A stretch of DNA of 56,744 nucleotides, filler included, from Stramenopiles sp. TOSAG23-3 (Eukaryota), in NCBI GenBank assembly GCA_900128585.1. It is 3 parts of 3 records of this genome, joined end to end, with 100 filler letters (N's around TTAATTAATTAA, not from the genome) between each part and the next. Parts side by side here need not be neighbours in the genome. Positions count along the whole stretch, not along the records: positions 1 to 18,863 come from LT642416.1; 2 more parts are not named here. The stretch is one strand, 5' to 3'. How positions within the stretch are numbered: the first letter of the stretch is position 1; the number at the start of each line of letters is the position of its first letter. Below are positions 9,326 through 24,470 of this stretch, piece after piece. The position numbers and the translations under genes were made by a program. Below the pieces are notes generated by a model. It made no database searches. It saw only the letters and a program-made list of their open reading frames with translations, and was not told where the DNA came from.

Positions 9326-10087
9326 TCAGACCGTCATACCACCATCGATCCCGATTACTTGCCCAGTGATGTAACTCGACAATGAAGAGTTGCACAAAAA
9401 CCCAACCAAGTTGGCAACGTCCTCGGCTTCACCGAACCGATTCAATGGTATTCGCTTCGATCCAATAATGCCATCCACGTCCATTCCAGCAGTCATCTCC
9501 GTGTGTATGTAGCCCGGCTCAATCATATTTACGCGGATGCTCCGCGGCCCTACTTCTTTGGCCAACGAACGGGTAAACCCAAGGAGGCCACTCTTCGACG
9601 CGGAGTACACGCTTTGGCCAACATTGCCCTGCGATCCAATGATGCTGCCGACGTTGACTATCGAGCCGTGGGTCACCCTGTTCTTCACCATGCTCTTAAC
9701 GGCAATTCTCGACGCTTGTATTGTACCAACGAGGTTGGTTTGAATCATGCTTTGCACGTGAGCATCCTTTGCTCGCAGCAACAAAGAGTCCTGTGCAATG
9801 CCGGCGCAGTTCACCAAACAGTCTATATGGTACGGTGATAGCGCGCCTTCCAGCTCATCCGCCTCTGCAACATCACACGGTTCAAAAGATATGGCCACGT
9901 TTTCAAAACTTCCACCCTTTTCATTTTTTAAAGCTTTCATAGCCTCCATCCCTGCGGCTTCATCCCTCCCAACAACGACAAGGTTGCGCGCCGAAGAACT
10001 CGCACCCAACTGCCGTAACAAAACCCTGCACGCTGCAAGCCCAATGCCCCGAGTCCCACCCGTCACTACCGTCGTTGGAACTGACAT
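9326..10087 (-). CDS. 3-oxoacyl-ACP reductase (FabG/CBR4-like SDR)
   Basis: TGGTRGIG, NCAGI, GNVGQSVYSASKSG, YITGQVIGIDGG. Confidence 0.9.
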   Translation of the reverse strand: MSVPTTVVTGGTRGIGLAACRVLLRQLGASSSARNLVVVGRDEAAGMEAMKALKNEKGGSFENVAISFEPCDVAEADELEGALSPYHIDCLVNCAGIAQDSLLLRAKDAHVQSMIQTNLVGTIQASRIAVKSMVKNRVTHGSIVNVGSIIGSQGNVGQSVYSASKSGLLGFTRSLAKEVGPRSIRVNMIEPGYIHTEMTAGMDVDGIIGSKRIPLNRFGEAEDVANLVGFLCNSSLSSYITGQVIGIDGGMTV

Positions 10088-10298: not shown

Positions 10299-10942
10299 GA
10301 GAAGAAAAAGAAGTGTCTCGTGTTTATCAAAACTTGATCTTAATATCCTTAATATTAATATACCTTAAATGAAATCTCCAAAACACTTCCACCAACCAAT
10401 TTGTTTGTTTTTATATTTTTCTTATTTCTACAGTATTTATTTTATTATTTATAATTATATTATTTTAAGAAGAAGATCTTGAGATCAGTATAAATATTTC
10501 TATACTAATAAATGCTAAAAAATGAATAATATTTCTATTTATAATTATAAATAAATAAGACGACTAGAAGATAGAAGATATTTTAGCGAAAAATGATCGA
10601 ATCAACTACGTAGTCTAGACTAGTACCGGTATAACAAGAGAGAGAACAGGGCGTCTAATTAGACTATTAAAAATGAAATACCTTTGATAGAATAGAAGAG
10701 CGCTTGCTTTGTTGAGCTAAGTTTCTGAGTTTCTGAGCTTCCAAGTTCCAAGCAAGCAGATCCAACCAACCAAATTCTTTCTTGTACTTTCCTGTTATAA
10801 TATGTGACCGGTATCTAAAATTGCTTCGTTTATTATCTCAACCTATGGATTCCTATGGTATGATGGGTACCGTACATTTTATTAATTAAAAAAAAAGAAA
10901 GAAATTTTGTTGTTGTTCTTTGTTTGTTGGTAGTAAAGCTGT

Positions 10943-10953
10943 AGAAGAAGAAG

Positions 10954-10983
<30 letters not shown>
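10943..10983 (+). repeat. (GAA)n microsatellite
   Basis: Pure GAA run. Similar tracts at ~18964-19000, ~27555-27636, ~45193-45445 and TTC-rich at ~39220-39300. Confidence 0.95.
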
Positions 10984-10985
<2 letters not shown>

Positions 10986-11108
10986 CGGTAGTACGGTAGA
11001 ACCGTACCGAATTGGATTGAAGAAAGGAAAGAAGAATGTATTTGGTGAAAGTGCATCCTGCTCACTTTTCTCTTTCTTTTGAAAATAGTGAAACATTAGC
11101 GTCAGAAG

Positions 11109-11202
11109 AACCTTACTACTATTGATGTTTACATAAACAAAAGAGTCGCATTTATAACCTTACTACTATTGATGTTTACATAAACAAAAGAGTCGCATTT
11201 AT
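11109..11202 (+). repeat. Perfect 47-bp tandem duplication
   Basis: AACCTTACTACTATTGATGTTTACATAAACAAAAGAGTCGCATTTAT at 11109-11155 and 11156-11202. Confidence 0.95.
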
Positions 11203-11203
11203 A

Positions 11204-11470
11204 TGCACGAAATGGTGGGAAGGGACTTTCTTTCGCTTATGTGCTGAAAGGCTGTCCCTTGCCTTCCATCGCTGGCTTGTCAAAGTCTTGCCGTTGGACG
11301 GCACTTAACTTTGACTTGCAAGCTTTGGGCAGGTGGCATGCGGTCCATCCTCCTGCTCGTACCGTTGAGTTTATCTCTTCGGCCAAGGCGTACTCGCTCG
11401 TGCCGAAAGTGCAGGCGCCAAACGCCCGTGGCGACCACCGCCTTTGGGGGCGGCGAAAGTGCAAACAAAG
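11204..11470 (+). ncRNA. Unassigned structured RNA candidate
   Basis: Stems AAGGGAC/GTCCCTT, GTCAAAGT/ACTTTGAC, TGCCGT/ACGGCA, GGGCAGG/CCTGCTC, CCGCC/GGCGG. Closing stem TGCAC/GTGCA, followed by ACA. Confidence 0.5.
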
Positions 11471-11580
11471 TAAGTGTAGAACCCCCCCCTCCGTTTTCCC
11501 TTCCTGACTGCCCCCCTCCCCCCTGTTCTCAGTTTCGTTCCCTCCAGCATTGATTGTCCTTTGCGCCAGAATCTTCATTG

Positions 11581-11668
11581 TTGCAAATGATAGTACGCAT
11601 ATATAATCTGTCAATCCCCTGAGCATTGCCAGTGACGATAACATATATTTTTTAAACTTTTGATGCAA
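11581..11668 (+). ncRNA. Box C/D snoRNA, SSU guide (U in GGAUUGACAGAUU)
   Basis: Stem TTGCA/TGCAA. C ATGATAG, guide AATCTGTCAATCC (13-nt antisense to 18S) before D' CTGA, C' GTGACGA, D TTGA. Confidence 0.85.
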
Positions 11669-11723
11669 TGAAGGAGTTCGAACTAGGCTCCCCTCTCTCC
11701 GTGAATTGACTTTACCGCTTGGG

Positions 11724-11808
11724 TACACAATGAAGATAATTGTTTAGCTATCGTATGCAACATCATAACGCAGTGACGATTCAACACCTCCTACTCATTC
11801 AGAGTGTA
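11724..11808 (+). ncRNA. Box C/D snoRNA, LSU Am1449-equivalent guide (snR24/SNORD76-type site)
   Basis: Stem TACAC/GTGTA. C ATGAAGA, C' GTGACGA, guide CCTCCTACTCAT antisense to LSU AUGAGUAGGAGG, D CAGA. The +5 rule gives the A of AUGAG. Confidence 0.8.
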
Positions 11809-11914
11809 TTTGCATAGTCAAACCAACGCACGAAAATTGGAGCCCAGCCCTGGGGCTCGTGCAATCCTCACACGCACACCGCTTGCGGCACCTGTCCGCT
11901 GCCCTCACGATTTT

Positions 11915-12042
11915 TTTTTTATGATGATAAAGTTCATGCACCATACTTAAAGTAGGCTCAATTGCTGGAGGTGCGATAGCACAAAGGCGGTTGTCCGTTA
12001 CGTGTGGAGAAACGATACCCATTTCAGTCTTTCTGAAGAAAA
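11915..12042 (+). ncRNA. Box C/D snoRNA, probable SSU guide (AAGGCUGAAA, snR41-type region)
   Basis: ATGATGA at 11921, CTGA at 12033. TTTCAGTCTT pairs with one G-U. ACCATACT matches the adjacent 18S AGUAUGGU. Confidence 0.65.
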
Positions 12043-12140
12043 AAAACCTGTGAGCGAAAGCAAAGTGGCGGCGACAAGGTTTTACCCAACAGCGCATTTT
12101 TGGGGCCTTGCGACGATATGGCGGGCGCAACTGTTGAAAT

Positions 12141-12221
12141 CCGGTGATGATCACATACCCATTTAATCTGAGACTGCAATATGTTGGTGGTTTAAATTGA
12201 AGAAAAATTATGATCTGAGCT
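12141..12221 (+). ncRNA. Box C/D snoRNA, LSU guide (UUAAAUGGGUA)
   Basis: C GTGATGA at 12144, guide TACCCATTTAA, D' CTGA at 12168, C' TTGAAGA, D CTGA at 12215. Confidence 0.75.
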
Positions 12222-12413
12222 TTTCTGGTTGTCTTTCCCTGGCCCGTGAATATCCTACCCTCTCTAAATTCTCTTCTTTAGCATGAGGTATCTCCACTCT
12301 TATTGACTTTTCAACAACGGAGTGATCATTTTTTGCATGCGAGACCAAACGCAAGCATGCATTTAGTTTGACAGTTTCTGAACACCTCTAATGTTGAAAA
12401 GCGTGTGCTCTCC

Positions 12414-12475
12414 GTGAGCCGCTTTTTGCATGGTTTGTTTCTGTGAAATTGCTCATGGTAGCGGCTTGCACATTG
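12414..12475 (+). ncRNA. H/ACA-type 3' hairpin candidate
   Basis: Basal stem GAGCCGCT/AGCGGCTT with internal loop, followed by ACA-TTG. Confidence 0.5.
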
Positions 12476-12666
12476 CGTCGTTTCTCCCCTCTCTTACTCG
12501 CCTGCCACGTATCGTACAAAACAAACTAACACAAAAATTGTTGAATAATGACAGCTTCCGTGTGGAACAGAAGAAAATCGCACACTTGGTGTGGACAGCT
12601 ATGCTTGACGTAAGTAAACAGAGAGTTTCTCCCCCGCCGCCTTTCTTGTTTGCACGCTGGGGTATT

Positions 12667-12757
12667 TTTTTGAAAAAGCTGATGAATTCACTATAATTAA
12701 CCATCTTTCGGGTCTGAGAGAAATCGATGAGAGATAAATAGTAATACCTGATTCAAA
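12667..12757 (+). ncRNA. Box C/D snoRNA, LSU Gm805-equivalent guide (snR39b-like)
   Basis: Stem TTTTTGAA/TTCAAAAA. C CTGATGA, 14-nt guide ACCATCTTTCGGGT antisense to ACCCGAAAGAUGGU directly before CTGA, D CTGA at 12746. Confidence 0.9.
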
Positions 12758-13031
12758 AATGTCTGCAGCGGACAAACGTTTCCGTCCTCTACTACCACGT
12801 TCAAAACCCGTCTCTTGGGCGTGCGTCTTCATCGAAGCCGAGGGTGCTCGACCTTCTCATGCATTTTCGGTCAATAGAAAGACCAGATCAACGAGTTCAC
12901 TTATGGGTGGGTTGGCTCTAGAATAATGGAGACCAATCCAATGGTGTCTCTACATCATTACTGTCCCTTCTTTAACTTTCGTTATTGCTCGTTTCAAGTT
13001 TCAACTAACCCGTCGTTCGCTTTGCTATTAA

Positions 13032-13167
13032 AGGAACCTTCCGGGAATGCTCCCGAAAGGACACTGGCAGGATCTGCCGAAGGGGCTTCCTGAGACCGTA
13101 AGTAGCTTCATGGACCTCTGCCCTGTACTTAATGGTAATCGTGCATCACTTTCCTTGCTTTACAGCT
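13032..13167 (+). ncRNA. Structured RNA / H/ACA candidate
   Basis: Nested stems AGGAA/TTCCT, CCTTC/GAAGG, CGGGA/TCCCG, GGCAG/CTGCC, then a second domain ending ACA-GCT. H box is not canonical. Confidence 0.45.
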
Positions 13168-13513
13168 TTCTCTACTAAGGTTTGGCATACATGACACGTA
13201 CAAAAAAGGAGCCTTTATCATACTCACCTTGCAGCTGAATTCCACGGCTTCATGGTCTTACTGGCCACGACATTTTTTCAAGTTTTCCTTCTTGCCCCTC
13301 TCGATTTATCCACTGCGAATTGCACTTTGCTAACATAATCGCGCCGTACTTGCCTTGCGCCTGTAGCCCCTCGAGGGAGGAGAACCCGGCAGCAGAGTTT
13401 GCTGTTTGTGAATGTGTGCTGTAAGTTTGCCTTTGCTTTCATGTCTACAAGTCCCCACCTCTCGAAGAAACGCAATTGCCCAGAATGGATTCCGAAAAAG
13501 AAATGTGTATTGC

Positions 13514-13615
13514 TTGATATGATGAATATTTTTCATGCGCGTCAATTGAGTCACGGGGTAATTACCGTGGCAAACGTGAAAAGAACTGCTCTTTTAATCC
13601 ATAATCTCTGATTCT
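13514..13615 (+). ncRNA. Box C/D snoRNA, LSU guide for C in GUGACGCGCAUGAA (SNORD10-type site)
   Basis: C ATGATGA at 13519, guide TTCATGCGCGTCA before D' TTGA, extra antisense TTAATCCAT, D CTGA at 13608. Confidence 0.85.
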
Positions 13616-13678
13616 ACATACACGTATAATTTCTGGGAACGTCATTGTGGCAGATCATGCACGACAGATCGCGTTTTG

Positions 13679-13802
13679 TGGCAGAAGGTTTCACTCTTGC
13701 GCTTTGCACTCGTGCCAAATGAACTTCTTGGTGGTCACTCTGGTGCTTTTCAGTTCCGTTATGGAGCGTATGAGATGAACCTGGGAAAGCCATCGTACAT
13801 AA
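13679..13802 (+). ncRNA. H/ACA snoRNA, copy 1 of the repeated 3' hairpin
   Basis: H box AAATGA, hairpin GGTGGT...GCCATC, ACA at 13797. Confidence 0.65.
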
Positions 13803-14272
13803 TTTTCTCGTTTTCAAACTTTGCAAAAAATTTTACCCTCGGCGCCTAACACAGACAATTTTTTTTTGCGTAGTATGCGACCAGCCGTAAGTACAGCCTT
13901 AAAAAACCCACGTCTTTCTTTCCCGCAGGTCCTCTGCCACGACTATCTTACCACAAAATGGATGAATAGTTGCCATGGACAATGCGAAGAGCTACAGTTA
14001 AGGATGCTAGTGCCAAAGGGGAGTTCGAAGGCCTCTAGGTACGCCGAAGCTTTGATGGATGATGAGTTTCACTAGTTTCCCAACGAAATTTTGCCGCAAC
14101 CCTCTTTCTCTCACAACCATCAAGGTCCAAGTATCTAACAAGAACCATCGCATTTTTATGTACGTAGCACGTGTGCCAATGTCGGTACCAATAAAAAGAT
14201 GAAAGCGACAAAGGTAAGTGAATCGATCGAAATCTCTCAACCGCATCTATCCCTTGCTCGTCTTTGCACTAG

Positions 14273-14375
14273 TTCCGATGATAGATATTTATACTTTCGT
14301 TCTATTGAGTCTGGGGTCATGCCTGGGCGTGAAAATTATTTGAATATGTTCTACACCAAGATCCGATCTGAGGAA
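14273..14375 (+). ncRNA. Dual-guide box C/D snoRNA (SSU Am974/snR54-type site plus LSU GAUCUUGGUG region)
   Basis: Stem TTCC/GGAA. C ATGATAG, ACTTTCGTTCT before D' TTGA, CACCAAGATC upstream of D CTGA at 14368. Confidence 0.8.
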
Positions 14376-14449
14376 TTTTTGTACTGACCCCGAGCCGAGA
14401 ACTGGAAGCAACCGTTCCCCGAAGCTGCACAAACGCTTTGCACAACAAT

Positions 14450-14532
14450 CAAGATATGAAGAAAACTATTGGTCCGTGTTTACGATCGCTACTAAAACTA
14501 GCATGAACTCACCTATAACCATGCCGATCTTG
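14450..14532 (+). ncRNA. Box C/D snoRNA U18/snR18-like (LSU Am649 equivalent)
   Basis: Stem CAAGA/TCTTG. C ATGAAGA, guide TTGGTCCGTGTTT antisense to AAACACGGACCAA, D' ACGA, D CCGA. Confidence 0.85.
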
Positions 14533-14573
14533 CAGAAGCATTGCCGTGTGCTGGTTCGGAAGGAAACGCAACT

Positions 14574-14665
14574 TGTCCTGATGATTATCGTATTTCTGAC
14601 ACCTCTTGTACGATGTTATGTAGGCGACTGCATATCAATGAACGTATATACGATTGTCTGAACAT
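14574..14665 (+). ncRNA. Box C/D snoRNA, snR48-type LSU region guide
   Basis: C CTGATGA at 14578, TTTCTGACACCTCT antisense to AGAGGUGUCAGAAA, degenerate D', D CTGA at 14658. Confidence 0.8.
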
Positions 14666-14731
14666 TTGCGCAAAGCTTTCCGGTTCGAGCGCGTCGACCC
14701 CCTCTTCTCTCTCTCCCTCCCTCCCTCCCTG

Positions 14732-14837
14732 TTCGTGATGCACCGCTGATTATATTATAGCAAAACATAGCCGTTTACCCGTCGTACTAATTACCATGGC
14801 GACTATCGACTTGAATGAGGTGTGTATGAGCTGAAAA
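14732..14837 (+). ncRNA. Box C/D snoRNA, LSU guide (CGGGUAAACGGC)
   Basis: C-like GTGATGC, 12-nt antisense GCCGTTTACCCG (14770-14781), D CTGA at 14831. Confidence 0.7.
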
Positions 14838-14859
14838 CTTAGTCAAAACACGAATAGAC

Positions 14860-14933
14860 GAAGATGACGAAACTTATGGATTCCCCTTCTTGATTTGCAG
14901 GTAGTCCAACTTGTATGTAGATTAATCTGAAGG
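14860..14933 (+). ncRNA. Box C/D snoRNA, LSU guide (AAGGGGAAUCC)
   Basis: C ATGACGA at 14864, GGATTCCCCTT before D' TTGA, D CTGA at 14927. Confidence 0.75.
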
Positions 14934-15181
14934 CTTTAGCCACCCGATTCGTATGCGATGGCACTTGGCATCATCGTAATACTGCCGTGTTTTACTATTT
15001 GATTTATATCAGCGTCCCCGTTCTTTTGTTGTCGAAGTGATCATGTTTTCAGTCCGCCACGAAAGAAAAGCATATTCTAATGCACGATTTGGTTTTGAGT
15101 TGCCACGCAATTCACTGTACTATCCCTTGTGCTTCGCTTTTATGCAAGAGAACCAATAAAAGTTTTTTGTTAAGCTTGGTC

Positions 15182-15241
15182 GGTGGTCATTCTGGCGCTT
15201 TTCAGCCAATGAGAAGAACCTGGGAAAGCCATCGTACAATT
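15182..15241 (+). ncRNA. H/ACA hairpin, copy 2
   Basis: Near-identical to 15490-15549 and 13730-13802. ACA at 15236. 5' half unclear. Confidence 0.65.
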
Positions 15242-15412
15242 TTATTATCTCCCTCTTCAAAAGAAATATGACAAAAGACATTTTATCTAACTCTTTCAAA
15301 CTCTTAGAACTACAAACAGCGGCACGGAATTGCCGAGGCACTGAAGTGCAACGTGAAAACGAACAGCAGGGTAAGTGGATTCTTCAAACGCTCCTCTTTA
15401 TGCTCTTTTTTA

Positions 15413-15549
15413 CCACCCCGCCAAACCAGCTTGCGTTGCATACTATTTCCCATAATCGCGAGTTAAACTGGGCGGGTAGAAAAACTTTTGGTGGTCATTC
15501 TGGCGCTTCTCAGTCAATGTGAAGAACCTGGGAAAGCCACCATACATTT
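15413..15549 (+). ncRNA. Two-hairpin H/ACA snoRNA (copy 3 of the repeated hairpin)
   Basis: 5' hairpin CCCGCC/GGCGGG plus AGCTTGCG/CGCGAGTT, H box AGAAAA at 15478, 3' hairpin GGTGGT/GCCACC, ACA-TTT at 15544. Confidence 0.8.
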
Positions 15550-15704
15550 GTTTGTCTCTTCACGCATCGCAAAATATTAAATTACTAACCTCACTCGTAG
15601 CACTCGGTCTGAGTGACCCAATAGTCCCAAGAATGATTTGTCGAGTAAGTATTGTCCATGGTGTTGAATCTCCACCCCTTCCTGCACACGTATCTAGAAG
15701 TCGA

Positions 15705-15790
15705 GGCTAATGATGAATAAACCTAACCTAAGAAACTTGAATTCAGAGTTCACGCTGTGATGAACCAAATTTGCACGTCAGTCTGAAGTC
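15705..15790 (+). ncRNA. Box C/D snoRNA snR72-like (LSU Am876 equivalent)
   Basis: C ATGATGA at 15710, D' TTGA, C' GTGATGA, guide ATTTGCACGTCAG antisense to CUGACGUGCAAAU, D CTGA at 15783. Confidence 0.9.
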
Positions 15791-16209
15791 TTTTGTACTT
15801 TACTAGTTTGTTGGTGCTTGGAAAGCTCTCTCCACCCTTCTTTTCCAAAAATGTATACGCTAACACGTCTTTCTCGTAAATCTTTTCTTTCAGTTCGGTG
15901 CTGAACGTGCTTCATTTATCGTATTTAAAAATGAAATATAAAATTAAAAACAATTTTCTTAATATCAGTAAAACTTTACCGGACAGAAATTTAAGTTCTT
16001 AAATACTTCGTTAATTCTTTTAACTTTTATCAATATGAACGTAATATATATATATGTTTTTTTTTATTCATATGTAAAATTCATACACACGGCTACCCTC
16101 TCGCACATCTTATGTCCTCAACCAGTGTAAAAATGCGTACGTAACGAGTTGCGAAGAAATCCGAACCGAACCTTCTTCTCCTGCTGATCTCTCGGCCTTT
16201 CCTTATAGC

Positions 16210-18357
16210 TCATAGTCCCCGCGCCCTTTGTTCAAAAATGCGGACCACCCCTTTGCTATCACCAACTAGGACAAACCTGGAATCGTTGGTGACGTTCGTT
16301 GTGCCTTCGTTTGATTTTGTGTCGCGAAGCAGAACGCCACTCTCCGTTCTCCCGATCTGTTCAGCCATCAGGGACGGTCCAAACATGGCACAAAAGGAAA
16401 CCGAATCGGTTCCCACGAAGCTTTCGTAGGCGTAGTTCTTGTTGCTGAATCGGTTAAAATCGAAGGACCGCTTGCCTTTCTTGCTACTGTCGTCGGTAAA
16501 CCAAATTACGACTCTCCCGTCCTCGCTGCCCCCGATTACTTTCGTTCCACTCTCGTTGAACGAGGTTATGATCAATGTCTGCTCAACTTTTGCACCTTTC
16601 AACTTCATCAACGGGTTGTAGTCCCGTATACGGTACAAGCGAACTCTCGAGTCACTCGTGGTTACGAGCAGCTCTTGGCCGTCTTTTCTCCAAGAGAACC
16701 CTGTCACCTTCTTGCCAACGCCACTTTTCAGTTTGTTTCTTCGGTTGCGGCATTCGATTTGCGTGTGGAAGTGCAGATTATTCTCAATGTAGAAAATACA
16801 GGCACCGTTGTACAGCCCTACCACGACCAGCTTCCCGTCCGGCGAGTACGAAATCGCGCTTATCTTGTGGGGGGTTTGCTGGAACTGAACTACACGATTT
16901 TTTGTAATGTTATAGACCCGGATCTTGCAATCGGAGCATCCAGTAACGAAGCGACCGACGTTGGTGGGGTGGAACGCAACGCAAGTGACTGCACTGGGAT
17001 GTGGGTATTTCTGCAGGCACTTCTTTTTGTCCACGTGCCACAACCGAACAGTTCTGTCAAGGCTTGCTGAGAGGAGAAAGCCTTTGTTCCAGGCCAGGGA
17101 GCAAACCCACTGCTCGTGCCCCTCGAATACGCGAAAAGGTTTTGCTTTGAAGGCTGGCTTTTCGCTCGGGTGGGGCTTCGGGTACACCCTGGACTCCGCA
17201 GTGGCACTGGCGCTTGCCTGCTCCGGTAAAACCTTCCCTGCGCTTTCGGCACCGTCGTTGGCTATTTCCCAAATACAAATTTTTTTGTCCTGCCCCGCTG
17301 TGGCCAGGTACAGCGGCCTCACAATTTTGTCGTTCAAGTCCGGTTCGCTCAACTGCATAGTAAATAAATAGCCTTTGTGACCACGCAACTCTTGGCGCAG
17401 GTACAACCCAGTATACTCTGCTGCTTTCCTCTTGTACATTTTTACAGGCGTCACGTTAGCGTCAAGGTCGGAGTGGTACGCGCTTTTCCGCCGGAGGCGG
17501 CTCCACAAGCCGCTGCGCGCGGCGCGGTCGGTACCGTGCCCGCCAACGGCGGAGGGCTTCGAGGCAGCCTGAGAGCCGTTTGGCCTGCTTCCGTCCTTGG
17601 TCATATTTCTCGAAAAGGCCGCAAAACCGTCTTTGTTCTCGTTGATTTGCCTAACAATCTCGTCGACGTTTCCAAGCACGTCCTCGGCCGTGTCTGCCCG
17701 AGAGTGGCCGCCGCCACGAACCGCGTCCACGGGGGCGGCGTCACGGTCTTCCGCCTCATCCCTTTTCAAATGGTCGCTGTCCCCCGCTTGATTTGTTTTG
17801 TCCAATGGGACTATGTCCCCATTATCATTGGTGTGCACTAAAATCCTGTACTTTTCGCCCTCATCGTTTATCTTTGTAAGATAAAATTGCCCTTCTGGCA
17901 GAACCTCTTCCCGCAACAAATCGGACTCGTTCCGTTGCCGCGGCTTGACTGCTTCTATTGTGGTGGTGTCCTCCGTTTGGACCGGCTCAGGGGCGGTGAC
18001 TAAATTTGGCGCCACTGGTTTCGCTTCCGCTTCTGCGTTCATCTCTGGCGTGGTTTCGGCCACTGACATCGCCCCTAGGAGCGAACTGTCCATCAAACCC
18101 GACAAATCGTCTACAGAGTGGCGGAGCCTCGACCCTACGCCCACGCCGGACTCGTCCATACTCGGGGAGTGCTGCCTAGCGTCCATGAATTCGTCCTCGT
18201 CCAAATTGCTCTGGTAATCGCTCTCGTATATGGAGTCAATAGACGTGGCAGTCCCACGAGCACTCCGAGGGCTACTGAGCCCGGCATCATCGTCACTGTC
18301 TACTATAATCTCTGTATCGGCACGCTCTCGAGAGGTGTCCAGCGTGAAAGAAGCCAT
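16210..18357 (-). CDS. WD40-repeat protein, WDR44-like
   Basis: LATAGQD, GH...LAW...FLLSASLDRTVRLWH, HP..VTCVAFHP, KKVTG, LLVTTSDSRVRLY. Acidic disordered N-terminus. Confidence 0.85.
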   Translation of the reverse strand: MASFTLDTSRERADTEIIVDSDDDAGLSSPRSARGTATSIDSIYESDYQSNLDEDEFMDARQHSPSMDESGVGVGSRLRHSVDDLSGLMDSSLLGAMSVAETTPEMNAEAEAKPVAPNLVTAPEPVQTEDTTTIEAVKPRQRNESDLLREEVLPEGQFYLTKINDEGEKYRILVHTNDNGDIVPLDKTNQAGDSDHLKRDEAEDRDAAPVDAVRGGGHSRADTAEDVLGNVDEIVRQINENKDGFAAFSRNMTKDGSRPNGSQAASKPSAVGGHGTDRAARSGLWSRLRRKSAYHSDLDANVTPVKMYKRKAAEYTGLYLRQELRGHKGYLFTMQLSEPDLNDKIVRPLYLATAGQDKKICIWEIANDGAESAGKVLPEQASASATAESRVYPKPHPSEKPAFKAKPFRVFEGHEQWVCSLAWNKGFLLSASLDRTVRLWHVDKKKCLQKYPHPSAVTCVAFHPTNVGRFVTGCSDCKIRVYNITKNRVVQFQQTPHKISAISYSPDGKLVVVGLYNGACIFYIENNLHFHTQIECRNRRNKLKSGVGKKVTGFSWRKDGQELLVTTSDSRVRLYRIRDYNPLMKLKGAKVEQTLIITSFNESGTKVIGGSEDGRVVIWFTDDSSKKGKRSFDFNRFSNKNYAYESFVGTDSVSFCAMFGPSLMAEQIGRTESGVLLRDTKSNEGTTNVTNDSRFVLVGDSKGVVRIFEQRARGL

Positions 18358-18963: not shown

Positions 18964-19346
18964 AAGAAGAAGAAGAAGAAGAAGAAAGAGAAGAAGAAGG
19001 CAGAGGGAGGCAGGGAGGAGGCAGCTAGAAGAATATTTAGACTATAGACTATTATATGTGTTTAATAATTTTTTATACTACAACACACACCATCATCCAA
19101 GATCCAAGAAGTAATATTCTATGGACTAGAAAATTGGACTCGGCTGCGTGCGGACTGCGGACAGAGGAGTACATTATTATAGCTATGACGTATACTTTCG
19201 ACGAGCAATAATTGTTGCAGTTTGCATTTGCTTTCGAAACGTTCAACATATTCGTATACGCGAGTTATTTTTTACGACTTACCAAGTGCGAAAGAGTCAA
19301 AGGAGCAAGAGACTGCGGTGCAATAGGAAAATCGGATACAAAGTGC

Positions 19347-22049
19347 ATGAGTGGCCAGAAGAAAAGACCCTCCCCCTCGTTGTCGCGGCGGCAAAGAAGG
19401 GCGTCTGCCGGCGACATAATGGAGCCTTTAAGGGACACGGTAACCTCTCCTGTTCAGACGTCCTCCAGTGGAAGTTCGCGCCCCAGCAGCAGGAATTCGG
19501 GCAAGGAACTTGGCTTGGGCATTAAAAGTCCGGTAACTCGTACAAGCCGTTCGTTCTCCATATCCAAAACGAGCTTCTCGCCTATTAGCAAGTCGTGCCC
19601 GTATGAGAACTTGAGGGAGATGGGGCTCAGGATGAGTCAAGAAATATCTTGTCGCGACGTGCGCCCACATATTTTATGGCCAACGTATACTTCTGTTTTT
19701 CGAGGAAAAGAAGCTTTTATTTGGATAAAAGGTTCGCAAGAAATCGAGGATCAGTATGGCACGGCAATCAACTCTGAAGGCTCTTTATCCGACGATCAAA
19801 ATAGTAACGATAACCAGGTGGACAAGAGAGAGTGGGCATTAGATATTTTGAACTGGATGCTCCGAGAAAAAATGATCTTTCGCGTATTTAGCGGAGTTAT
19901 GCCAAAGATATCGCTTGGGAAAAAGACACAAAGAACATTTATAGCTAGAGATGAGAAGTCCGTGCACCCTAAAGATAGATTTATTGCGTCGTCTAAGGCC
20001 CTTTATCGGTTCAATGACGCCTTGATTGCGGACAAGCACGTTCATGTAGTTGTGCACTGTGCCCGTGATCTTTTAGGAAAATCGAGAGATGGAACGTCTT
20101 CGCCATTCGTCCGTTTGGAATTTGGAAGGCAGCGGGCAGAAACAAAGGTTGTTACTAAGGAGTTAAACCCAACGTGGGAAGAGCATTTCACGTTTGGTAT
20201 GGTAGAGCGAGAAGAACGCACGTCGCTGTTGCGAATCAGCGTATGGGACAGTCAGGTAAACAAGAGTGCATTTTTGGGACAAGTCTCCGTCTTTATTGCG
20301 AGTAATGGTGTGGTAAAAGTGCCTTTGGTAAAGGACACCGACACGAATGGATACGCCACCAAAGACTCCTGCCCTCCTTCGCATTGGTCTAAATTGCTTC
20401 AGAGGAGCATGAAATCCAAAGTAACGGGCTCGTTACTTATTACTACATATGCGACAGACTTCAACTTCAACCCCCACCTAAAAATTCGGTCGTCTGCGGG
20501 AAAAAAGTATTTTCAAAGCGACCCCATGTTAATGAGACAAGCAATGCGGGAAACGTTTGGGTGCGTCCTGTCCCACGAAGAAATGGGTCAACAGGGAGCT
20601 TTAGCTGCTGCGGCATCCTCTGGTTTGTGGGACCTGGTTATTCGGCTAAAAAGTCTGCACAAAGTTCACCTGGAACACGAATGCGAAGATTTAAAAATCG
20701 CGAGTGCCCTTCTGCTTCCAGGGATGCAATGGAAAAACAGAGTCATTGCGCGGGTTCGTTGGAGCAAAAGCCAGTGCGCCGAACTGGAGTCGCAATGGAT
20801 ATTGAGAAAAAATGGGAAATGGAAAAACGACAAAGGCGTTCTGCGAATGAGCCATTTGCTTCACGAAGACATTCGCCAAGGTCAAATTGAGCTTGAAGTT
20901 GTAATGCGCGACAATTGGGCTGCAGAGTGGGACAAGAATGCTCGAATTCTCGGTACCACTGCGCGATTTACGCTCGAGGAGTTGCCGCGCCTGATTGGAA
21001 GTGCAGAAAGCCATGTGATTCAAGAATTTGAAGACGATGAAATCAACGGTTTAGCCAATGACGATCACAACGTTTCCGGGAGCGAGGTAGTGCAAGATTT
21101 TCCGATCTACATTCGTACGTATGCAGGGAAGTCTCATTTGGTGAGAAATGGTAGTTTGCGAGCAGCGTTGTACTTGGTCCCATCGAAAACGCCTTCTGGG
21201 ACCTGGAACAGTGCCAACAATTGGAACGATGAGATCAAAATTGTGCACAAAGAGAATGAGGACGTAAAAAAGATTAAGATTTCTAACAAGGTGCCAAGCG
21301 GGTTGACAGATCCTATTTTGGACATTGTTGTCGACACCCCGTTCCCGCGGCTGAAACGGTATCTGTTTTCTAACGATAGCTCCTTTCTGCTCTCATTCTA
21401 CAACTTGCTGTCCTACCGGCACATAAATTTGGGGTCATGGGAGCACGGGAACGGAGTCACAAACACTGGGAAGACCCCAAGCAAATATGAAAAACACGTT
21501 CCTGGAAATATCAAAGGCATGTCTCGCAGCATCACCTTCCTGCTACCAGAGGGTCGCGCCGTTTCTCAGAGTCAGACCGTGGAAGTGCAGTACGTAAAGG
21601 CAGATCAGGAAGGTGTGTGCATAGTTGAAATATCGAACATGACTGCGGATTTACCGTTGCGGGACCTCTTTGATGCGAAAATCGAAATAGCAATTATCTG
21701 TGAGGGTGCAAAGTATTCAAGAATTCGTGTGTCTGCAGAGTTGTTGTGGTACAAAAAAGATTGGAAAGAGAAAAATAAGGTGGCGATAAAAACCGGTTTT
21801 CTTAGTGGGTGCAGAGAAAAATATGGCTCGTTGAAGCAAGCGTTGGACTGGGCCGCGAATGTGCAATGGACGAGCTCAATGGAAGGCTCACCTAATCAAC
21901 GGAACTCAAATAATTATGCATACGCTTCTGGCGATGGAAGTAGCTGGAAGTCGTACGCGATGAAGTCCTGCGGGAGACACTCGTCCCGAATCCTATGGAC
22001 TTCAGCCGTTGTGTTAATGATCAGTATTGCGTGGGGGACGTTGTTGTAA
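19347..22049 (+). CDS. DEP + C2 + VASt-like lipid-transfer protein with C-terminal TM anchor
   Basis: DEP-like TYTSVFRGKEAFIWI...ALYRF; C2 HCARDL...SPFVRLEFG...ELNPTWEEHF; VASt-like LFSNDSSFL...DLPLRDLF; hydrophobic C-terminus. Confidence 0.75.
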   Translation: MSGQKKRPSPSLSRRQRRASAGDIMEPLRDTVTSPVQTSSSGSSRPSSRNSGKELGLGIKSPVTRTSRSFSISKTSFSPISKSCPYENLREMGLRMSQEISCRDVRPHILWPTYTSVFRGKEAFIWIKGSQEIEDQYGTAINSEGSLSDDQNSNDNQVDKREWALDILNWMLREKMIFRVFSGVMPKISLGKKTQRTFIARDEKSVHPKDRFIASSKALYRFNDALIADKHVHVVVHCARDLLGKSRDGTSSPFVRLEFGRQRAETKVVTKELNPTWEEHFTFGMVEREERTSLLRISVWDSQVNKSAFLGQVSVFIASNGVVKVPLVKDTDTNGYATKDSCPPSHWSKLLQRSMKSKVTGSLLITTYATDFNFNPHLKIRSSAGKKYFQSDPMLMRQAMRETFGCVLSHEEMGQQGALAAAASSGLWDLVIRLKSLHKVHLEHECEDLKIASALLLPGMQWKNRVIARVRWSKSQCAELESQWILRKNGKWKNDKGVLRMSHLLHEDIRQGQIELEVVMRDNWAAEWDKNARILGTTARFTLEELPRLIGSAESHVIQEFEDDEINGLANDDHNVSGSEVVQDFPIYIRTYAGKSHLVRNGSLRAALYLVPSKTPSGTWNSANNWNDEIKIVHKENEDVKKIKISNKVPSGLTDPILDIVVDTPFPRLKRYLFSNDSSFLLSFYNLLSYRHINLGSWEHGNGVTNTGKTPSKYEKHVPGNIKGMSRSITFLLPEGRAVSQSQTVEVQYVKADQEGVCIVEISNMTADLPLRDLFDAKIEIAIICEGAKYSRIRVSAELLWYKKDWKEKNKVAIKTGFLSGCREKYGSLKQALDWAANVQWTSSMEGSPNQRNSNNYAYASGDGSSWKSYAMKSCGRHSSRILWTSAVVLMISIAWGTLL

Positions 22050-22065
22050 ATTTTTGGCACACTCT

Positions 22066-22158
22066 AATAACACAGCCAATTTTTTGTTTTTTCTAAGTAA
22101 TTAAATTTAATGTATCATACTAATTTAAATAAAAGCAAGAAAATTGGCTGTTATTTAA
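22066..22158. repeat. Repeat family B inverted pair (CAAGAAAATTGGCTGT core)
   Basis: ACAGCCAATTTT at 22072 and GCAAGAAAATTGGCTGTTATTTAA at 22135, between convergent genes. Confidence 0.8.
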
Positions 22159-22303
22159 CTAATTTAAAAGAAAAGTTTAGACAAGGAATAAGATAAAAAT
22201 AAAAACTAATTTTTATCTCTTCAAATCGCATCGCATTTTGTAAAGGAATGAAATTTCTTCTCTCATCAATGTAACCCTTGAGTGTTAATGCTAAAAATAA
22301 AAC

Positions 22304-23968: not shown

Positions 23969-24470
23969 GTGGTGGTGGAAGTGGGTGTAATAAAATGAAA
24001 CTACTTTCTACTTCTTATATTTCTCGTCGGCAATAAGTGTCAAGAATCTTTTTCTTCACATCGTCTATAGATGTCTGAGAAAAAATAACTTATCGCCTGG
24101 TTCTTCTGGTTATTTATTTGTCTCTATCAAAATACAAAAAGTCGTCTCGTCAGATCGACCTCGTCGACCATCATCGGACCAACTTCTTCGTTCTCTTTCT
24201 TTCTTTTCTTCTTCTCTTCTTTTCTTCGCGCTTCTTCCCCCTCCCTAATACTACCGGGGTCGTAACCGTACTATGCCCCTATCACTAGTATATAAAAATC
24301 TTGATTTATACGATCTTCACGGGAAGTTAGTCCTCACTCTGTGCCTGTATTTTTGCGTCTTGATAAAAAAAGACAAGCAATAGCATCACAATACTTTTGT
24401 ACTTAATTTTTGAAACAAAATATAATACCAAGGTAATAGGATAGCATAGGGCCCTGGTCGTATTTTTTTG

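What the first reader, a model, noticed from the sequence alone, without database searches (positions are those of the whole stretch)
11204..15790. Dense ~4.6-kb same-strand snoRNA cluster hidden in an ORF-free block
Seen: GC-balanced DNA without credible ORFs, containing 11 C...D box units on the + strand. Each has a 10-14-nt segment antisense to conserved rRNA, several have terminal stems, and ACA-terminated hairpins are interleaved. Known: the +5 rule puts several guides on conserved methylation sites (yeast LSU Am649/U18, Gm805/snR39b, Am876/snR72, Am1449/snR24; SSU Am974/snR54). Inference: one independently transcribed polycistronic mixed C/D + H/ACA precursor, unusually large and probably unannotated in this lineage. 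More RNAs likely fill the gaps (e.g. 12320-12381, 12780-12960, 13200-13450, 13950-14260, 14950-15100).
Basis: partly seen in the sequence, partly recalled or inferred. Interest (0 to 1): 0.9.

Follow-up and report, generated by a model that had tools for sequence, protein, structure and literature searches.

The report
Spliced non-coding snoRNA host gene
This ORF-free stretch is a spliced, non-coding gene of an uncultured marine protist whose introns carry about a dozen small RNAs that guide ribosomal RNA methylation; this kind of gene is already known from animals, fungi and algae.

Summary
Window 11.1-15.9 kb (+) has no credible ORF and is packed with box C/D snoRNA units, all on the + strand.

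- Rfam gives 15 C/D-family rows of 17 there. An equal-sized control stretch gives 0 of 5.
- 11-mers antisense to conserved rRNA number 12 on the + strand and 1 on the - strand. Other 5-kb tiles give 0-4.
- Eleven units carry a guide supported in this way. Two or three more are orphans.

This is one dedicated non-coding transcription unit, but not a plain polycistron.

- Contigs from four marine metatranscriptomes (three studies) show six GT..AG joints.
- These define seven introns and eight exons, one of them a 13-nt micro-exon.
- Every intron has GTAAGT and a CTAAC branch site.
- The spliced RNA is about 0.7-1.0 kb, and its longest ATG ORF is 61 codons.
- All the snoRNAs lie in introns. Two introns of about 1.09 kb hold five or six units each.

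So this is a UHG/GAS5-like host gene combined with intronic clusters.

The interleaved ACA-tailed hairpins exist, and three are paralogues. No Rfam H/ACA match or conserved pseudouridylation pocket was found for them. The organism's own rRNA and the mature RNA ends could not be examined. Verdict: new member of a known kind.

The parts
11156..11469 (+). Exon 1 as seen in RNA contigs. Loose ends show it begins about 15 nt further upstream, near 11094 if only one copy of the 47-nt duplication is counted.
   Evidence: tables 5, 7 and 8
11470..12554 (+). Intron 1 (1085 nt). GTAAGT at the 5' end, CTAAC 25 nt before the AG. Holds U1-U5 and hairpin HA_a.
   Evidence: Joint 11469>12555 in 3 of 4 runs; splice signals
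11581..11668 (+). C/D unit U1. C-like AUGAUAG 11587, D' CUGA 11619, C' GUGACGA 11632, D-like UUGA 11660. The D' guide is antisense to SSU GGAUUGACAGAUU.
   Evidence: SNORD110-like, 32.4 bits, below gathering score 64; 14-bp duplex, 5 of 8 SSU panel members; 8-bp terminal stem
11721..11810 (+). C/D unit U2. C AUGAAGA 11730, C' GUGACGA 11773, D-like CAGA 11800. The D guide is antisense to LSU GAUGAGUAGGAGG.
   Evidence: snoZ105 30.5 bits and snoZ162 28.4 bits, both below gathering score; 13 bp, 5 of 9 LSU; 6-bp stem
11911..12045 (+). C/D unit U3, long. C AUGAUGA 11921, D CUGA 12033, U-run/A-run terminal stem. Guides are antisense to SSU GGUGCAUGG and LSU GAAGACUGAAGUGG.
   Evidence: Strict box-and-stem scan; Me18S-Gm1358-like, 23.7 bits
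12137..12222 (+). C/D-like unit U4, an orphan. C GUGAUGA 12144, CUGA at 12168 and 12215. No conserved rRNA target.
12307..12400 (+). C/D-like unit U5. C-like GUGAUCA 12322, D CUGA 12378, 10-bp outer stem. Weak LSU match only. A 71% paralogue of its 5' part lies at 15033-15073.
   Evidence: Fold z = -2.8; repeat family D5
12385..12475 (+). Hairpin HA_a followed by ACA (12470-12472), 57 nt before the branch A. An H/ACA-like candidate.
   Evidence: RNA contig 12356-12506 in X1
12555..12609 (+). Exon 2 (55 nt)
12610..13033 (+). Intron 2 (424 nt). Holds U6 and HA_b.
   Evidence: Joint in 4 of 4 runs
12668..12758 (+). C/D unit U6. C CUGAUGA 12679, D' CUGA 12714, D CUGA 12748. The 18-21-nt D' guide is antisense to LSU ACCCGAAAGAUGGU.
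   Evidence: snoR29 28.5 bits and SNORD96 21.8 bits; 20 of 21 WC pairs to L040; 0 of 200 shuffles reach it
12775..12957 (+). Structured segment HA_b with ACA at 12952-12954. Also holds box-less antisense elements to LSU (12789-12798) and 5.8S (12825-12835).
13034..13097 (+). Exon 3 (64 nt)
13098..13366 (+). Intron 3 (269 nt). Holds hairpin HA_c, about 13200-13275, with ACA at 13270-13272.
   Evidence: Joint in 4 of 4 runs
13367..13420 (+). Exon 4 (54 nt)
13421..13873 (+). Intron 4 (453 nt). Holds U7 and HA_d.
   Evidence: joint 13420>14168 carries 13 letters that match 13874-13886
13510..13615 (+). C/D unit U7. C AUGAUGA 13519, D'-like UUGA 13546, D CUGA 13608. The D' guide is antisense to LSU UGACGCGCAUGAA.
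   Evidence: SNORD10-like 20.5 bits; 13 bp, 6 of 9 LSU; 0 of 200 shuffles
13635..13802 (+). HA_d: a two-hairpin H/ACA-like candidate with ACA at 13797-13799. Its 3' hairpin is copy A of a three-member paralogue family.
13874..13886 (+). Exon 5, a 13-nt micro-exon
   Evidence: The same 13 letters lie between the two sides of the joint in 4 of 4 runs (table 5c)
13887..14167 (+). Intron 5 (281 nt). Content unresolved: a C box AUGAUGA at 14059 but no clear D box or conserved guide.
14168..14213 (+). Exon 6 (46 nt)
   Evidence: cut +2
14214..15307 (+). Intron 6 (1094 nt). Holds U9, U10, U11, U11b, U12, a U5 paralogue and HA_g. No internal GTAAGT.
   Evidence: Joint in 3 of 4 runs
14271..14377 (+). 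C/D unit U9, dual guide. The D' guide is antisense to SSU AGAACGAAAGU. The D-side element is antisense to LSU GAUCUUGGUG and lies 4 nt from the CUGA, which is atypical spacing.
   Evidence: snoZ159/U59 29.3 bits and SNORD24 20.1 bits; 7 of 8 SSU and 7 of 9 LSU; 6-bp stem
14450..14532 (+). C/D unit U10, U18-like. C AUGAAGA 14456, D'-like ACGA 14482, D-like CCGA 14524. The guide is antisense to LSU AAACACGGACCAA.
   Evidence: SNORD18 28.1 bits, below gathering score 41; 13 of 13 WC pairs, 9 of 9 LSU; 6-bp stem
14574..14664 (+). C/D unit U11, snoR1-like. C CUGAUGA 14578, D'-like ACGA 14610, D CUGA 14658. The 17-18-nt guide is antisense to LSU (U)ACAAGAGGUGUCAGAAA.
   Evidence: snoR1 39 bits, E 5e-6 to 9e-6, below gathering score 49; perfect 18-mer in L040
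14731..14838 (+). C/D unit U11b, found here. C-like GUGAUGC 14735, D CUGA 14831. An internal guide is antisense to LSU CGGGUAAACGGC. The D guide pairs with SSU UUGUACACACC through 2-3 G-U pairs.
   Evidence: 12-mer in 7 LSU panel members
14858..14935 (+). C/D unit U12. C AUGACGA 14864, D'-like UUGA 14890, D CUGA 14927. The guide is antisense to LSU AAGGGGAAUCC.
   Evidence: snoR60-like 16.7 bits, E 7.2, weak; 12 bp, 6 of 9 LSU
15120..15241 (+). HA_g: H/ACA-like candidate with ACA at 15236-15238. Copy B of the paralogous 3' hairpin.
15308..15370 (+). Exon 7 (63 nt)
   Evidence: cuts +2 and +1
15371..15600 (+). Intron 7 (230 nt). Holds HA_h, about 15405-15549, with ACA at 15544-15546. Copy C of the paralogous hairpin.
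   Evidence: Joint in 2 of 4 runs
15601..15909 (+). Exon 8 as seen, to the end of the contig. It contains candidate intron 8 (15645-15893) with GTAAGT, CTAAC and CAG, but no spliced joint was seen for it.
   Evidence: X3 contig runs 15600-15909 unspliced; signals
15702..15793 (+). C/D unit U13, snoZ122. C AUGAUGA 15710, C' GUGAUGA 15757, D CUGA 15783. The 13-14-nt guide is antisense to LSU (A)CUGACGUGCAAAU.
   Evidence: The only Rfam match above gathering score: 40.7 vs 38; 9 of 9 LSU (though this guide helped fetch the panel); L040 match, 1 of 200 shuffles; 6-bp stem

Best explanation
The block is a single non-coding snoRNA host gene on the + strand, running from about 11.09 kb to at least 15.91 kb. 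It belongs to an uncultured marine protist.

Shown here:
- The primary transcript is spliced at seven GTAAGT...CTAAC...AG introns, possibly eight.
- The product is a short, ORF-poor RNA that is found in poly(A)-selected libraries.
- All recognisable snoRNA units sit in the introns. There are one to two per short intron and five to six in each of the two introns of about 1.09 kb.
- At least 11 C/D units carry 10-21-nt elements antisense to conserved SSU or LSU rRNA, directly upstream of a D or D'-like box.

Inferred from what is known of intronic and clustered snoRNAs:
- The excised introns are debranched.
- In the multi-unit introns they are cut between units, then trimmed by exonucleases up to the snoRNP-protected box C/D kink-turn and terminal stem.
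- The mature RNAs then direct fibrillarin to 2'-O-methylate the rRNA nucleotide paired to the fifth guide position upstream of the box.

The ACA-tailed hairpins probably give H/ACA-like RNAs, but this is unproven.
For: Splicing:
- Six GT..AG joints appear in contigs of 4 RNA runs from 3 studies. Individual joints are seen in 2 to 4 of the 4 runs.
- The same 13-nt micro-exon appears in 4 of 4 runs.
- Two of the runs are poly(A)-selected.
- All 7 seen introns have GTAAGT and a CTAAC 12-33 nt before the AG.
- GTAAGT occurs 8 times on the + strand in this 5 kb, each time at a seen or candidate 5' splice site. It occurs 8 times in the other 51.7 kb.

Non-coding nature:
- The spliced RNA is 720-969 nt. 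Its longest ATG ORF is 61 aa, and the first ATG opens a 3-codon frame.
- 0 of 8 ORFs in the region has a Pfam hit above cut-off.

snoRNAs:
- One Rfam hit lies above gathering score.
- 15 of 17 rows at E<=10 are C/D families on the + strand, against 0 of 5 in the control.
- Further family-level guide matches appear.
- 12 versus 1 conserved antisense 11-mers on the + versus the - strand.
- 12 distinct guide elements reach at least 5 panel members, against 3 of 150 random anchors.
- Five guides beat at least 199 of 200 shuffles against a single divergent rRNA.
- 8 of 12 units have terminal stems.

RNA contigs also cover intron stretches that hold units, for example 14448-14598 and 15682-15832 in X1.
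Against: - The RNA evidence consists of assembled contigs, not reads. Mature ends, strand and discrete 70-150-nt products are not shown.
- Only 1 of about 13 units passes an Rfam gathering score.
- Many boxes are degenerate: AUGAUAG, GUGAUCA, UUGA, ACGA, CCGA.
- U4 and U5 have no conserved target.
- The rRNA panel comes from other organisms, and three guides were used to fetch it.
- The last snoRNA (U13) lies in a stretch that was seen only unspliced.
- No H/ACA family match or pocket target was found.
Confidence: 0.85

Rival explanations
1. This is an independently transcribed polycistronic precursor, processed purely by endo- and exonucleases as in plant, yeast or trypanosomatid clusters. 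On this reading splicing is irrelevant to snoRNA release.
For: - Two introns hold 5-6 units each, so cuts between units are needed in any case.
- Intron stretches appear as unspliced contigs in RNA libraries.
- Splicing-independent processing of plant intronic clusters is something I recall from the literature, not something I read here.
Against: - The transcript is demonstrably spliced at seven canonical introns that bracket the units.
- The exons are tiny spacers of 13-64 nt.
- The splice signals are perfect consensus.
This layout makes little sense if splicing played no part.
Confidence: 0.1
2. The host gene is protein-coding, making a small peptide, and the snoRNAs are merely passengers in its introns.
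For: A 61-codon ATG ORF spans exon 1 into exon 2 of the spliced RNA.
Against: - The first ATG opens a 3-codon frame, and several short upstream ORFs precede the 61-codon frame.
- No Pfam signal was found on overlapping unspliced ORFs.
- The spliced ORF itself was not searched for homologues.
Confidence: 0.04
3. A sizeable share of the units are decaying paralogues or pseudogenes, and only a core of about 6-8 units makes functional snoRNPs.
For: - Degenerate C and D boxes in U1, U2, U5, U9 and U10.
- Atypical guide-to-box spacing in the D guide of U9.
- Orphan units U4 and U5.
- A box-less copy of the U9 guide at 12973-12988.
- Internal duplications.
Against: - The guides of the degenerate-box units are still perfectly complementary to conserved rRNA over 11-14 nt.
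- The same variant boxes (UUGA, ACGA, CCGA) recur in several units, which suggests lineage-specific box usage.
Confidence: 0.35
4. The block is a decayed transposon or a coding relic, and its snoRNA-like motifs are chance.
For: None beyond the lack of ORFs and some internal repeats.
Against: - Strand-specific enrichment of rRNA-antisense elements and of Rfam C/D hits.
- A spliced transcript.
- The repeated hairpin has no copy elsewhere in the 56.7-kb window.
Confidence: 0.01

Closest known systems
Vertebrate non-coding snoRNA host genes (UHG, GAS5, other SNHGs)
   Same: A multi-exon, spliced, polyadenylated RNA with only short ORFs, whose introns carry the functional products. The description of the vertebrate genes is recalled, and is echoed in passages of PMC2780460 read.
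   Different: Vertebrate hosts follow one snoRNA per intron. Here four of the seven seen introns hold more than one element, and two hold 5-6. A 5'TOP promoter was not tested.
UHG-like non-coding cluster hosts of Neurospora crassa and yeasts (PMC2780460, passages read)
   Same: Non-coding hosts with short ORFs (159-267 bp in that paper), canonical introns flanking C/D snoRNAs, and clusters of several snoRNAs in one gene.
   Different: The Neurospora clusters are C/D only and mostly one per intron. This locus is larger, with about 13 C/D units plus ACA hairpins, and has multi-unit introns. The lineage is not fungal: the best named homologues of a neighbouring gene are a dinoflagellate and labyrinthulomycetes at 49-54% identity.
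Intronic snoRNA gene clusters of rice, Drosophila, Chlamydomonas and Ostreococcus tauri (PMC7671301 passages; Chen et al. 2008 seen only as a reference there)
   Same: Several snoRNAs are packed in a single intron, which implies a polycistronic intermediate derived from the intron.
   Different: According to the passages read, the 72 single intronic O. tauri snoRNAs lie in protein-coding hosts, and only 2 of its 12 clusters are intronic. Here the host is non-coding, and it combines many introns with clusters inside introns.
Independent polycistronic snoRNA clusters of plants, trypanosomatids and Euglena
   Same: A dense same-strand array mixing classes, expressed from one promoter.
   Different: Those clusters are not interrupted by exons, and release does not involve splicing. 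Here splicing is observed.

Membership tests
Box C/D snoRNA | C box (RUGAUGA) near the 5' end and D box (CUGA) near the 3' end | tested here: met
   Canonical or one-mismatch C and D boxes in U3, U4, U6, U7, U11, U12 and U13. U1, U2, U5, U9, U10 and U11b have more degenerate boxes.
Box C/D snoRNA | Short terminal stem that brings the C and D boxes together | tested here: met
   Stems of 6 bp or more in 8 of 12 folded units. None was seen in the minimum-energy fold for U7, U11, U11b and U12.
Box C/D snoRNA | A 10-21-nt guide antisense to the target RNA, ending 1-3 nt upstream of the D or D' box | tested here: met
   12 distinct elements in 11 units, tested against rRNAs of other eukaryotes, with a background control. 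The organism's own rRNA was not available.
Box C/D snoRNA | A discrete stable RNA of about 60-150 nt bound by fibrillarin, Nop56/58 and Snu13, with the target nucleotide methylated | not testable with these tools
   Only assembled contigs were available. They show presence in RNA libraries, not RNA ends.
Named Rfam families (snoZ122, snoR1, SNORD18, snoZ159/U59, snoR29, SNORD110, snoZ105 and others) | Score at or above the family's gathering threshold | tested here: not met
   Met only by snoZ122 (40.7 vs 38). The others score 16.7-39 bits against thresholds of 37-64. They share the guide element with those families, so they work like them, but they are not filed as members.
Box H/ACA snoRNA | Hairpin-hinge(ANANNA)-hairpin-ACA layout, with the ACA 3 nt from the 3' end | tested here: inconclusive
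   Hairpins followed by ACA occur at six places, and HA_d shows a two-hairpin fold with AAAUGA in the hinge. The 3' ends are unknown. There is no H/ACA family row.
Box H/ACA snoRNA | Bipartite pocket complementary to the target around a U that lies 14-16 nt from the box | tested here: not met
   The paralogous hairpin has no conserved rRNA target. A region-wide scan gave 0 hits, but only 180 conserved U contexts were available, so the test is weak.
Non-coding snoRNA host gene (UHG/GAS5 type) | Spliced multi-exon transcript without a long ORF, with snoRNAs in the introns | tested here: met
Non-coding snoRNA host gene (UHG/GAS5 type) | One snoRNA per intron | tested here: not met
   Introns 1 and 6 hold 5-6 units each. 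Introns 2 and 4 each hold a C/D unit plus a hairpin.
Intronic snoRNA gene cluster | Two or more snoRNAs inside a single spliceosomal intron | tested here: met
   Intron 1 (11470-12554) and intron 6 (14214-15307) are each removed as one piece and have no internal GTAAGT.
Independent (intron-less) polycistronic snoRNA cluster | The array is not interrupted by exons, and release does not depend on splicing | tested here: not met
   Seven introns and eight exons were observed. Whether processing depends on splicing is not testable here.

The most novel reading that the evidence does not exclude
The genome looks intron-poor, since its neighbours are long uninterrupted ORFs. In such a genome this gene may keep seven or eight perfect-consensus introns, and even a 13-nt micro-exon, only as a delivery device for snoRNAs.

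In six of the seven seen introns the last element is an ACA-tailed hairpin that ends 42-61 nt upstream of the branch adenosine. This could mark a position-dependent, splicing-coupled assembly step for H/ACA-like RNAs. As I recall it, that would be the reverse of the vertebrate rule, where box C/D snoRNAs are the position-dependent class.
Probability: 0.12. Interest if true: 0.55.

Novelty: new member of a known kind. Interest (0 to 1): 0.33.

Why it matters
- It gives a ready-made annotation of a dozen rRNA-methylation guides and their expression unit in an uncultured, widely detected marine protist. Parts of the locus occur in RNA libraries of 12 studies.
- No close named relative exists: neighbouring proteins are at most 54% identical to named ones.
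- It adds a data point on how snoRNA gene organisation varies across eukaryotes. This locus is a hybrid of the animal and fungal host-gene mode and the plant and algal intronic-cluster mode.
- It also shows that introns persist where they carry RNA genes.

It does not reveal a new mechanism.

Tried and rejected
1. No whole genome is held for this window, so the organism's own rRNA could not be used.
2. The first rRNA proxy, L040, is a divergent eukaryote. Several SSU guides failed against it. A broader panel from contaminant rDNA in prokaryote assemblies resolved most of them.
3. A scan of viral contigs for rDNA found nothing.
4. A strict C-box, D-box and stem finder recovered only 5 pairings in the region, against 0 on the - strand. 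It is too strict for this lineage's degenerate boxes.
5. Loose duplex counting (12 nt with one mismatch) is dominated by background: 58 versus 49.
6. H/ACA pocket and target searches gave no conserved target. The three-copy hairpin alignment has no two-sided compensatory change.
7. Exact-motif searches for the other guides around 45 or so metagenomic snoR1 homologues showed no shared cluster make-up.
8. Taxonomy:
   - The atlas look-up was uninformative.
   - Protein searches give only distant named hits.
9. A paper's main text gave only the U18 site.
10. No tRNA genes were found.
11. A full-text search for snoRNA, stramenopile, cluster and intron listed no dedicated study among 12 of the 26 papers shown.
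12. Parts of the stretch without contig cover are not evidence of anything.

Full report
**What is there.** Window 11.1-15.9 kb has GC 0.40-0.46. It lies between two minus-strand protein genes: a short-chain dehydrogenase at 9326-10087 and a WD40 protein at 16210-18357. It has no credible ORF. The longest stop-free frame is 168 codons, on the minus strand. None of the eight ORFs of 80 aa or more has a Pfam match above cut-off; one has a sub-threshold row at E 0.042. No tRNA gene is present.

**Check of the C/D observation with Rfam.**
- At gathering thresholds Rfam reports a single match in the whole 56.7-kb window: snoZ122 at 15702-15793 (+), 40.7 bits against 38.
- With permissive thresholds on 10900-16100 it lists 17 rows. 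Fifteen are box C/D families, all on the + strand, at nine distinct places. The other two rows are a lncRNA fragment and a miRNA model at E 4.8.
- An equal-sized control stretch (19000-24200) gave five rows, none of them a snoRNA.
- Re-searching L104 added SNORD24-like and snoR60-like rows. L104 is a metagenome contig 100% identical to window 12536-15203.
- In each alignment, the part shared with the family consensus is the guide element next to the D or D' box.

**rRNA complementarity.** No genome is held for the window, so I obtained rRNAs from other eukaryotes.
- A scan of metagenome contigs with the 17-nt snoR1-type guide returned one complete rDNA unit, L040.
- A scan of prokaryote assemblies with two guides at LSU spacing returned 57 contaminant eukaryotic rDNA contigs. 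Ten of them were annotated with Rfam.
- This gave a panel of 8 SSU, 9 LSU (3 complete) and 7 5.8S sequences.

Unbiased test. I counted 11-mers antisense to at least three panel members. There are 12 on the + strand of 11000-16000 and 1 on the - strand. The other 20 tile-strands of the window give 0-4, mean 1.65. Two of the 12 are the guides used to fetch the panel, which leaves 10.

Box-anchored test.
- 13 of 25 guide rows (12 distinct elements) reach my score of 24 in five or more panel members.
- Only 3 of 150 random NNGA-anchored 18-mers from the rest of the window do so.
- Against the single divergent L040 rRNA, five guides beat at least 199 of 200 shuffles. Several SSU guides failed there because L040's SSU is aberrant at those sites.

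**Resulting C/D inventory.**

| Unit | Coordinates | Resembles | Guide target |
|---|---|---|---|
| U1 | 11581-11668 | SNORD110 | SSU |
| U2 | 11721-11810 | Z105 | LSU |
| U3 | 11911-12045 | Me18S-Gm1358 | SSU, plus an LSU guide |
| U6 | 12668-12758 | snoR29/SNORD96 | LSU, 18-21 nt |
| U7 | 13510-13615 | SNORD10 | LSU |
| U9 | 14271-14377 | U59 plus U24 elements | SSU and LSU |
| U10 | 14450-14532 | U18 | LSU |
| U11 | 14574-14664 | snoR1 | LSU, 17-18 nt |
| U11b | 14731-14838 | none (found here) | LSU, plus a wobble-rich SSU guide |
| U12 | 14858-14935 | snoR60 | LSU |
| U13 | 15702-15793 | snoZ122 | LSU |

- That makes 11 units with a supported guide.
- U4 (12137-12222) and U5 (12307-12400) have boxes and, for U5, a 10-bp stem. 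They have no conserved target.
- A 71% paralogue of U5's 5' part lies at 15033-15073.
- Eight of 12 folded units show terminal stems of 6 bp or more.
- Many D' and D boxes are variants (UUGA, ACGA, CCGA, CAGA) that recur between units.

At family level, the U18-, U59/snR54- and U24-type assignments agree with what I see. By my +5 reading, the Z122-type guide points at an A in CUG[A]CGUGC and the snoR29-type guide at a G in ACCC[G]AAAG. How these map to yeast numbering is recalled, not tested.

**The decisive new result: the unit is spliced.** I laid Logan contigs of four marine metatranscriptomes on 10900-16100. The four runs come from three studies, and two are poly(A)-selected. They gave six GT..AG joints:

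| Joint | Runs showing it |
|---|---|
| 11469>12555 | 3 of 4 |
| 12609>13034 | 4 of 4 |
| 13097>13367 | 4 of 4 |
| 13420>14168, carrying 13 letters that match 13874-13886 | 4 of 4 |
| 14213>15308 | 3 of 4 |
| 15370>15601 | 2 of 4 |

- These joints define eight exons (55, 64, 54, 13, 46 and 63 nt between the terminal ones) and seven introns (1085, 424, 269, 453, 281, 1094 and 230 nt).
- Every intron starts GTAAGT and has CTAAC 12-33 nt before the AG.
- GTAAGT occurs eight times on the + strand in this 5 kb, each time at one of these sites or at 15645. It occurs eight times in the remaining 51.7 kb.
- The eighth site, with CTAAC at 15860 and CAG at 15893, would make an intron around U13. No joint was seen for it, and one contig runs through it unspliced.
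- The spliced RNA is 720-969 nt. Its longest ATG ORF is 61 codons, and the first ATG opens a 3-codon frame.
- All units lie in introns. Intron 1 holds U1-U5 plus a hairpin. Intron 6 holds U9-U12, the U5 paralogue and a hairpin. Neither intron has an internal GTAAGT.

**Mechanism.**
- Shown: one transcript, splicing, the intronic position of the units, and guide complementarity.
- Inferred from established knowledge of intronic and clustered snoRNAs (passages of PMC7671301 and PMC2780460 read): debranching of the excised introns, endonucleolytic separation in the multi-unit introns, exonucleolytic trimming up to the assembled snoRNP, and fibrillarin-mediated 2'-O-methylation at the fifth paired position upstream of D or D'.
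- Not shown: mature ends, strand of the small RNAs, methylation itself, and whether release needs splicing.

**ACA hairpins.**
- Hairpins followed by ACA lie at 12470, 12952, 13270, 13797, 15236 and 15544.
- Three of them (13728-13802, 15180-15241, 15488-15549) are paralogues at 65-90% identity over 60 nt. They occur nowhere else in the window.
- Their consensus hairpin has 19 pairs. Four vary on one side only while staying paired, two are broken in one copy, and none shows a two-sided change.
- No H/ACA family appears among the Rfam rows.
- A pocket search for the paralogous hairpin and a region-wide snoGPS-like scan found no conserved rRNA target. The scan had only 180 conserved U contexts to work with, so it is weak.
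- I therefore treat these hairpins as H/ACA-like candidates only.
- Each is the last element of its intron and ends 42-61 nt before the branch adenosine. I defined this class after seeing the data, and ACA is a common triplet, so this regularity is only a lead.

**Organism.**
- Parts of the locus are held by RNA libraries labelled marine or seawater from 12 studies.
- A neighbouring phospholipase B-like protein has unnamed metagenomic relatives at 67-68% identity. Its best named hits are at 49-54%: a dinoflagellate transcriptome, Hondaea and Mucochytrium.
- The WD40 neighbour has no named hit above 36%.
- The lineage is therefore an uncultured marine protist, possibly within the stramenopile-alveolate part of the tree. 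This was not resolved.

**Comparison and novelty.**
- Non-coding multi-intron snoRNA hosts are known from vertebrates and from Neurospora and yeasts (PMC2780460).
- Intronic clusters are known from rice, Drosophila, Chlamydomonas and Ostreococcus, and independent polycistrons from plants, trypanosomatids and Euglena (PMC7671301).
- This locus combines the first two modes and is dense, with about 13 C/D units and about 6 hairpins in 4.8 kb. It introduces no new principle.
- Among some 45 metagenomic snoR1 homologues, none shared this set of neighbours by exact-motif search.
- A full-text search listed no dedicated study of snoRNA clusters in stramenopiles.
- Verdict: real, correctly spotted, interpretation to be amended from 'polycistron' to 'spliced non-coding host gene with intronic clusters'. 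It is a new member of a known kind.

Noticed in passing
window 11109-11202: A perfect 47-nt tandem duplication sits at the 5' end of the host gene. RNA contigs from three runs carry loose ends consistent with a single copy. This could be strain variation or assembly collapse.
   Followed up: partly
window 10936-11010: A (GAA)n microsatellite is followed by a GTACGGTAG-type inverted repeat just upstream of the host gene. This may be part of a promoter region shared with the divergent dehydrogenase gene.
   Followed up: no
window 13063-13074 (exon 3): A 12-nt element is perfectly antisense to the extreme 5' end of SSU rRNA (GAUCCUGCCAGU) in 8 of 8 panel SSUs. It lies in an exon and has no adjacent box. 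It may be chance or an unrecognised function.
   Followed up: partly
window 12973-12988: A box-less element is antisense to SSU AACGAAAGUUAG. It reaches the score threshold in 8 of 8 panel members and resembles the D' guide of U9 (14293-14303). It could be a relic of duplication or a degenerate extra unit between HA_b and the branch site.
   Followed up: partly
window 12789-12798 and 12825-12835: Two elements lie 27 nt apart. One is antisense to LSU GUGGUAGUAG. The other is antisense to 5.8S UCGAUGAAGAC and is followed, after 2 nt, by CCGA. Together they may be a further C/D unit with unrecognisable C box, hidden in the segment I labelled HA_b.
   Followed up: partly
window 13874-13886: A 13-nt micro-exon is included in the spliced contigs of all four runs.
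   Followed up: yes
window 14450-14665 (run X1): One X1 contig fits only this stretch (U10 plus U11) and runs on unlike the window on both sides. Two X1 contigs are 90-95% alike. This hints at a relative or paralogous locus that conserves the U18-like and snoR1-like pair while its flanks differ.
   Followed up: no
whole window: Most neighbouring genes are long uninterrupted ORFs, and GTAAGT is rare outside the host gene: 8 on the + strand and 6 on the - strand in 51.7 kb. This suggests an intron-poor genome with strict splice signals.
   Followed up: partly
L020, L024, L034, L036, L050, L057, L068, L084: snoR1-type snoRNA genes occur as tandem pairs 197-471 nt apart in several unrelated metagenome contigs.
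   Followed up: no
L121-L177: At least 57 contigs filed under bacterial or archaeal assemblies carry eukaryotic LSU rDNA. This is contamination or mis-binning in public prokaryote genomes.
   Followed up: partly
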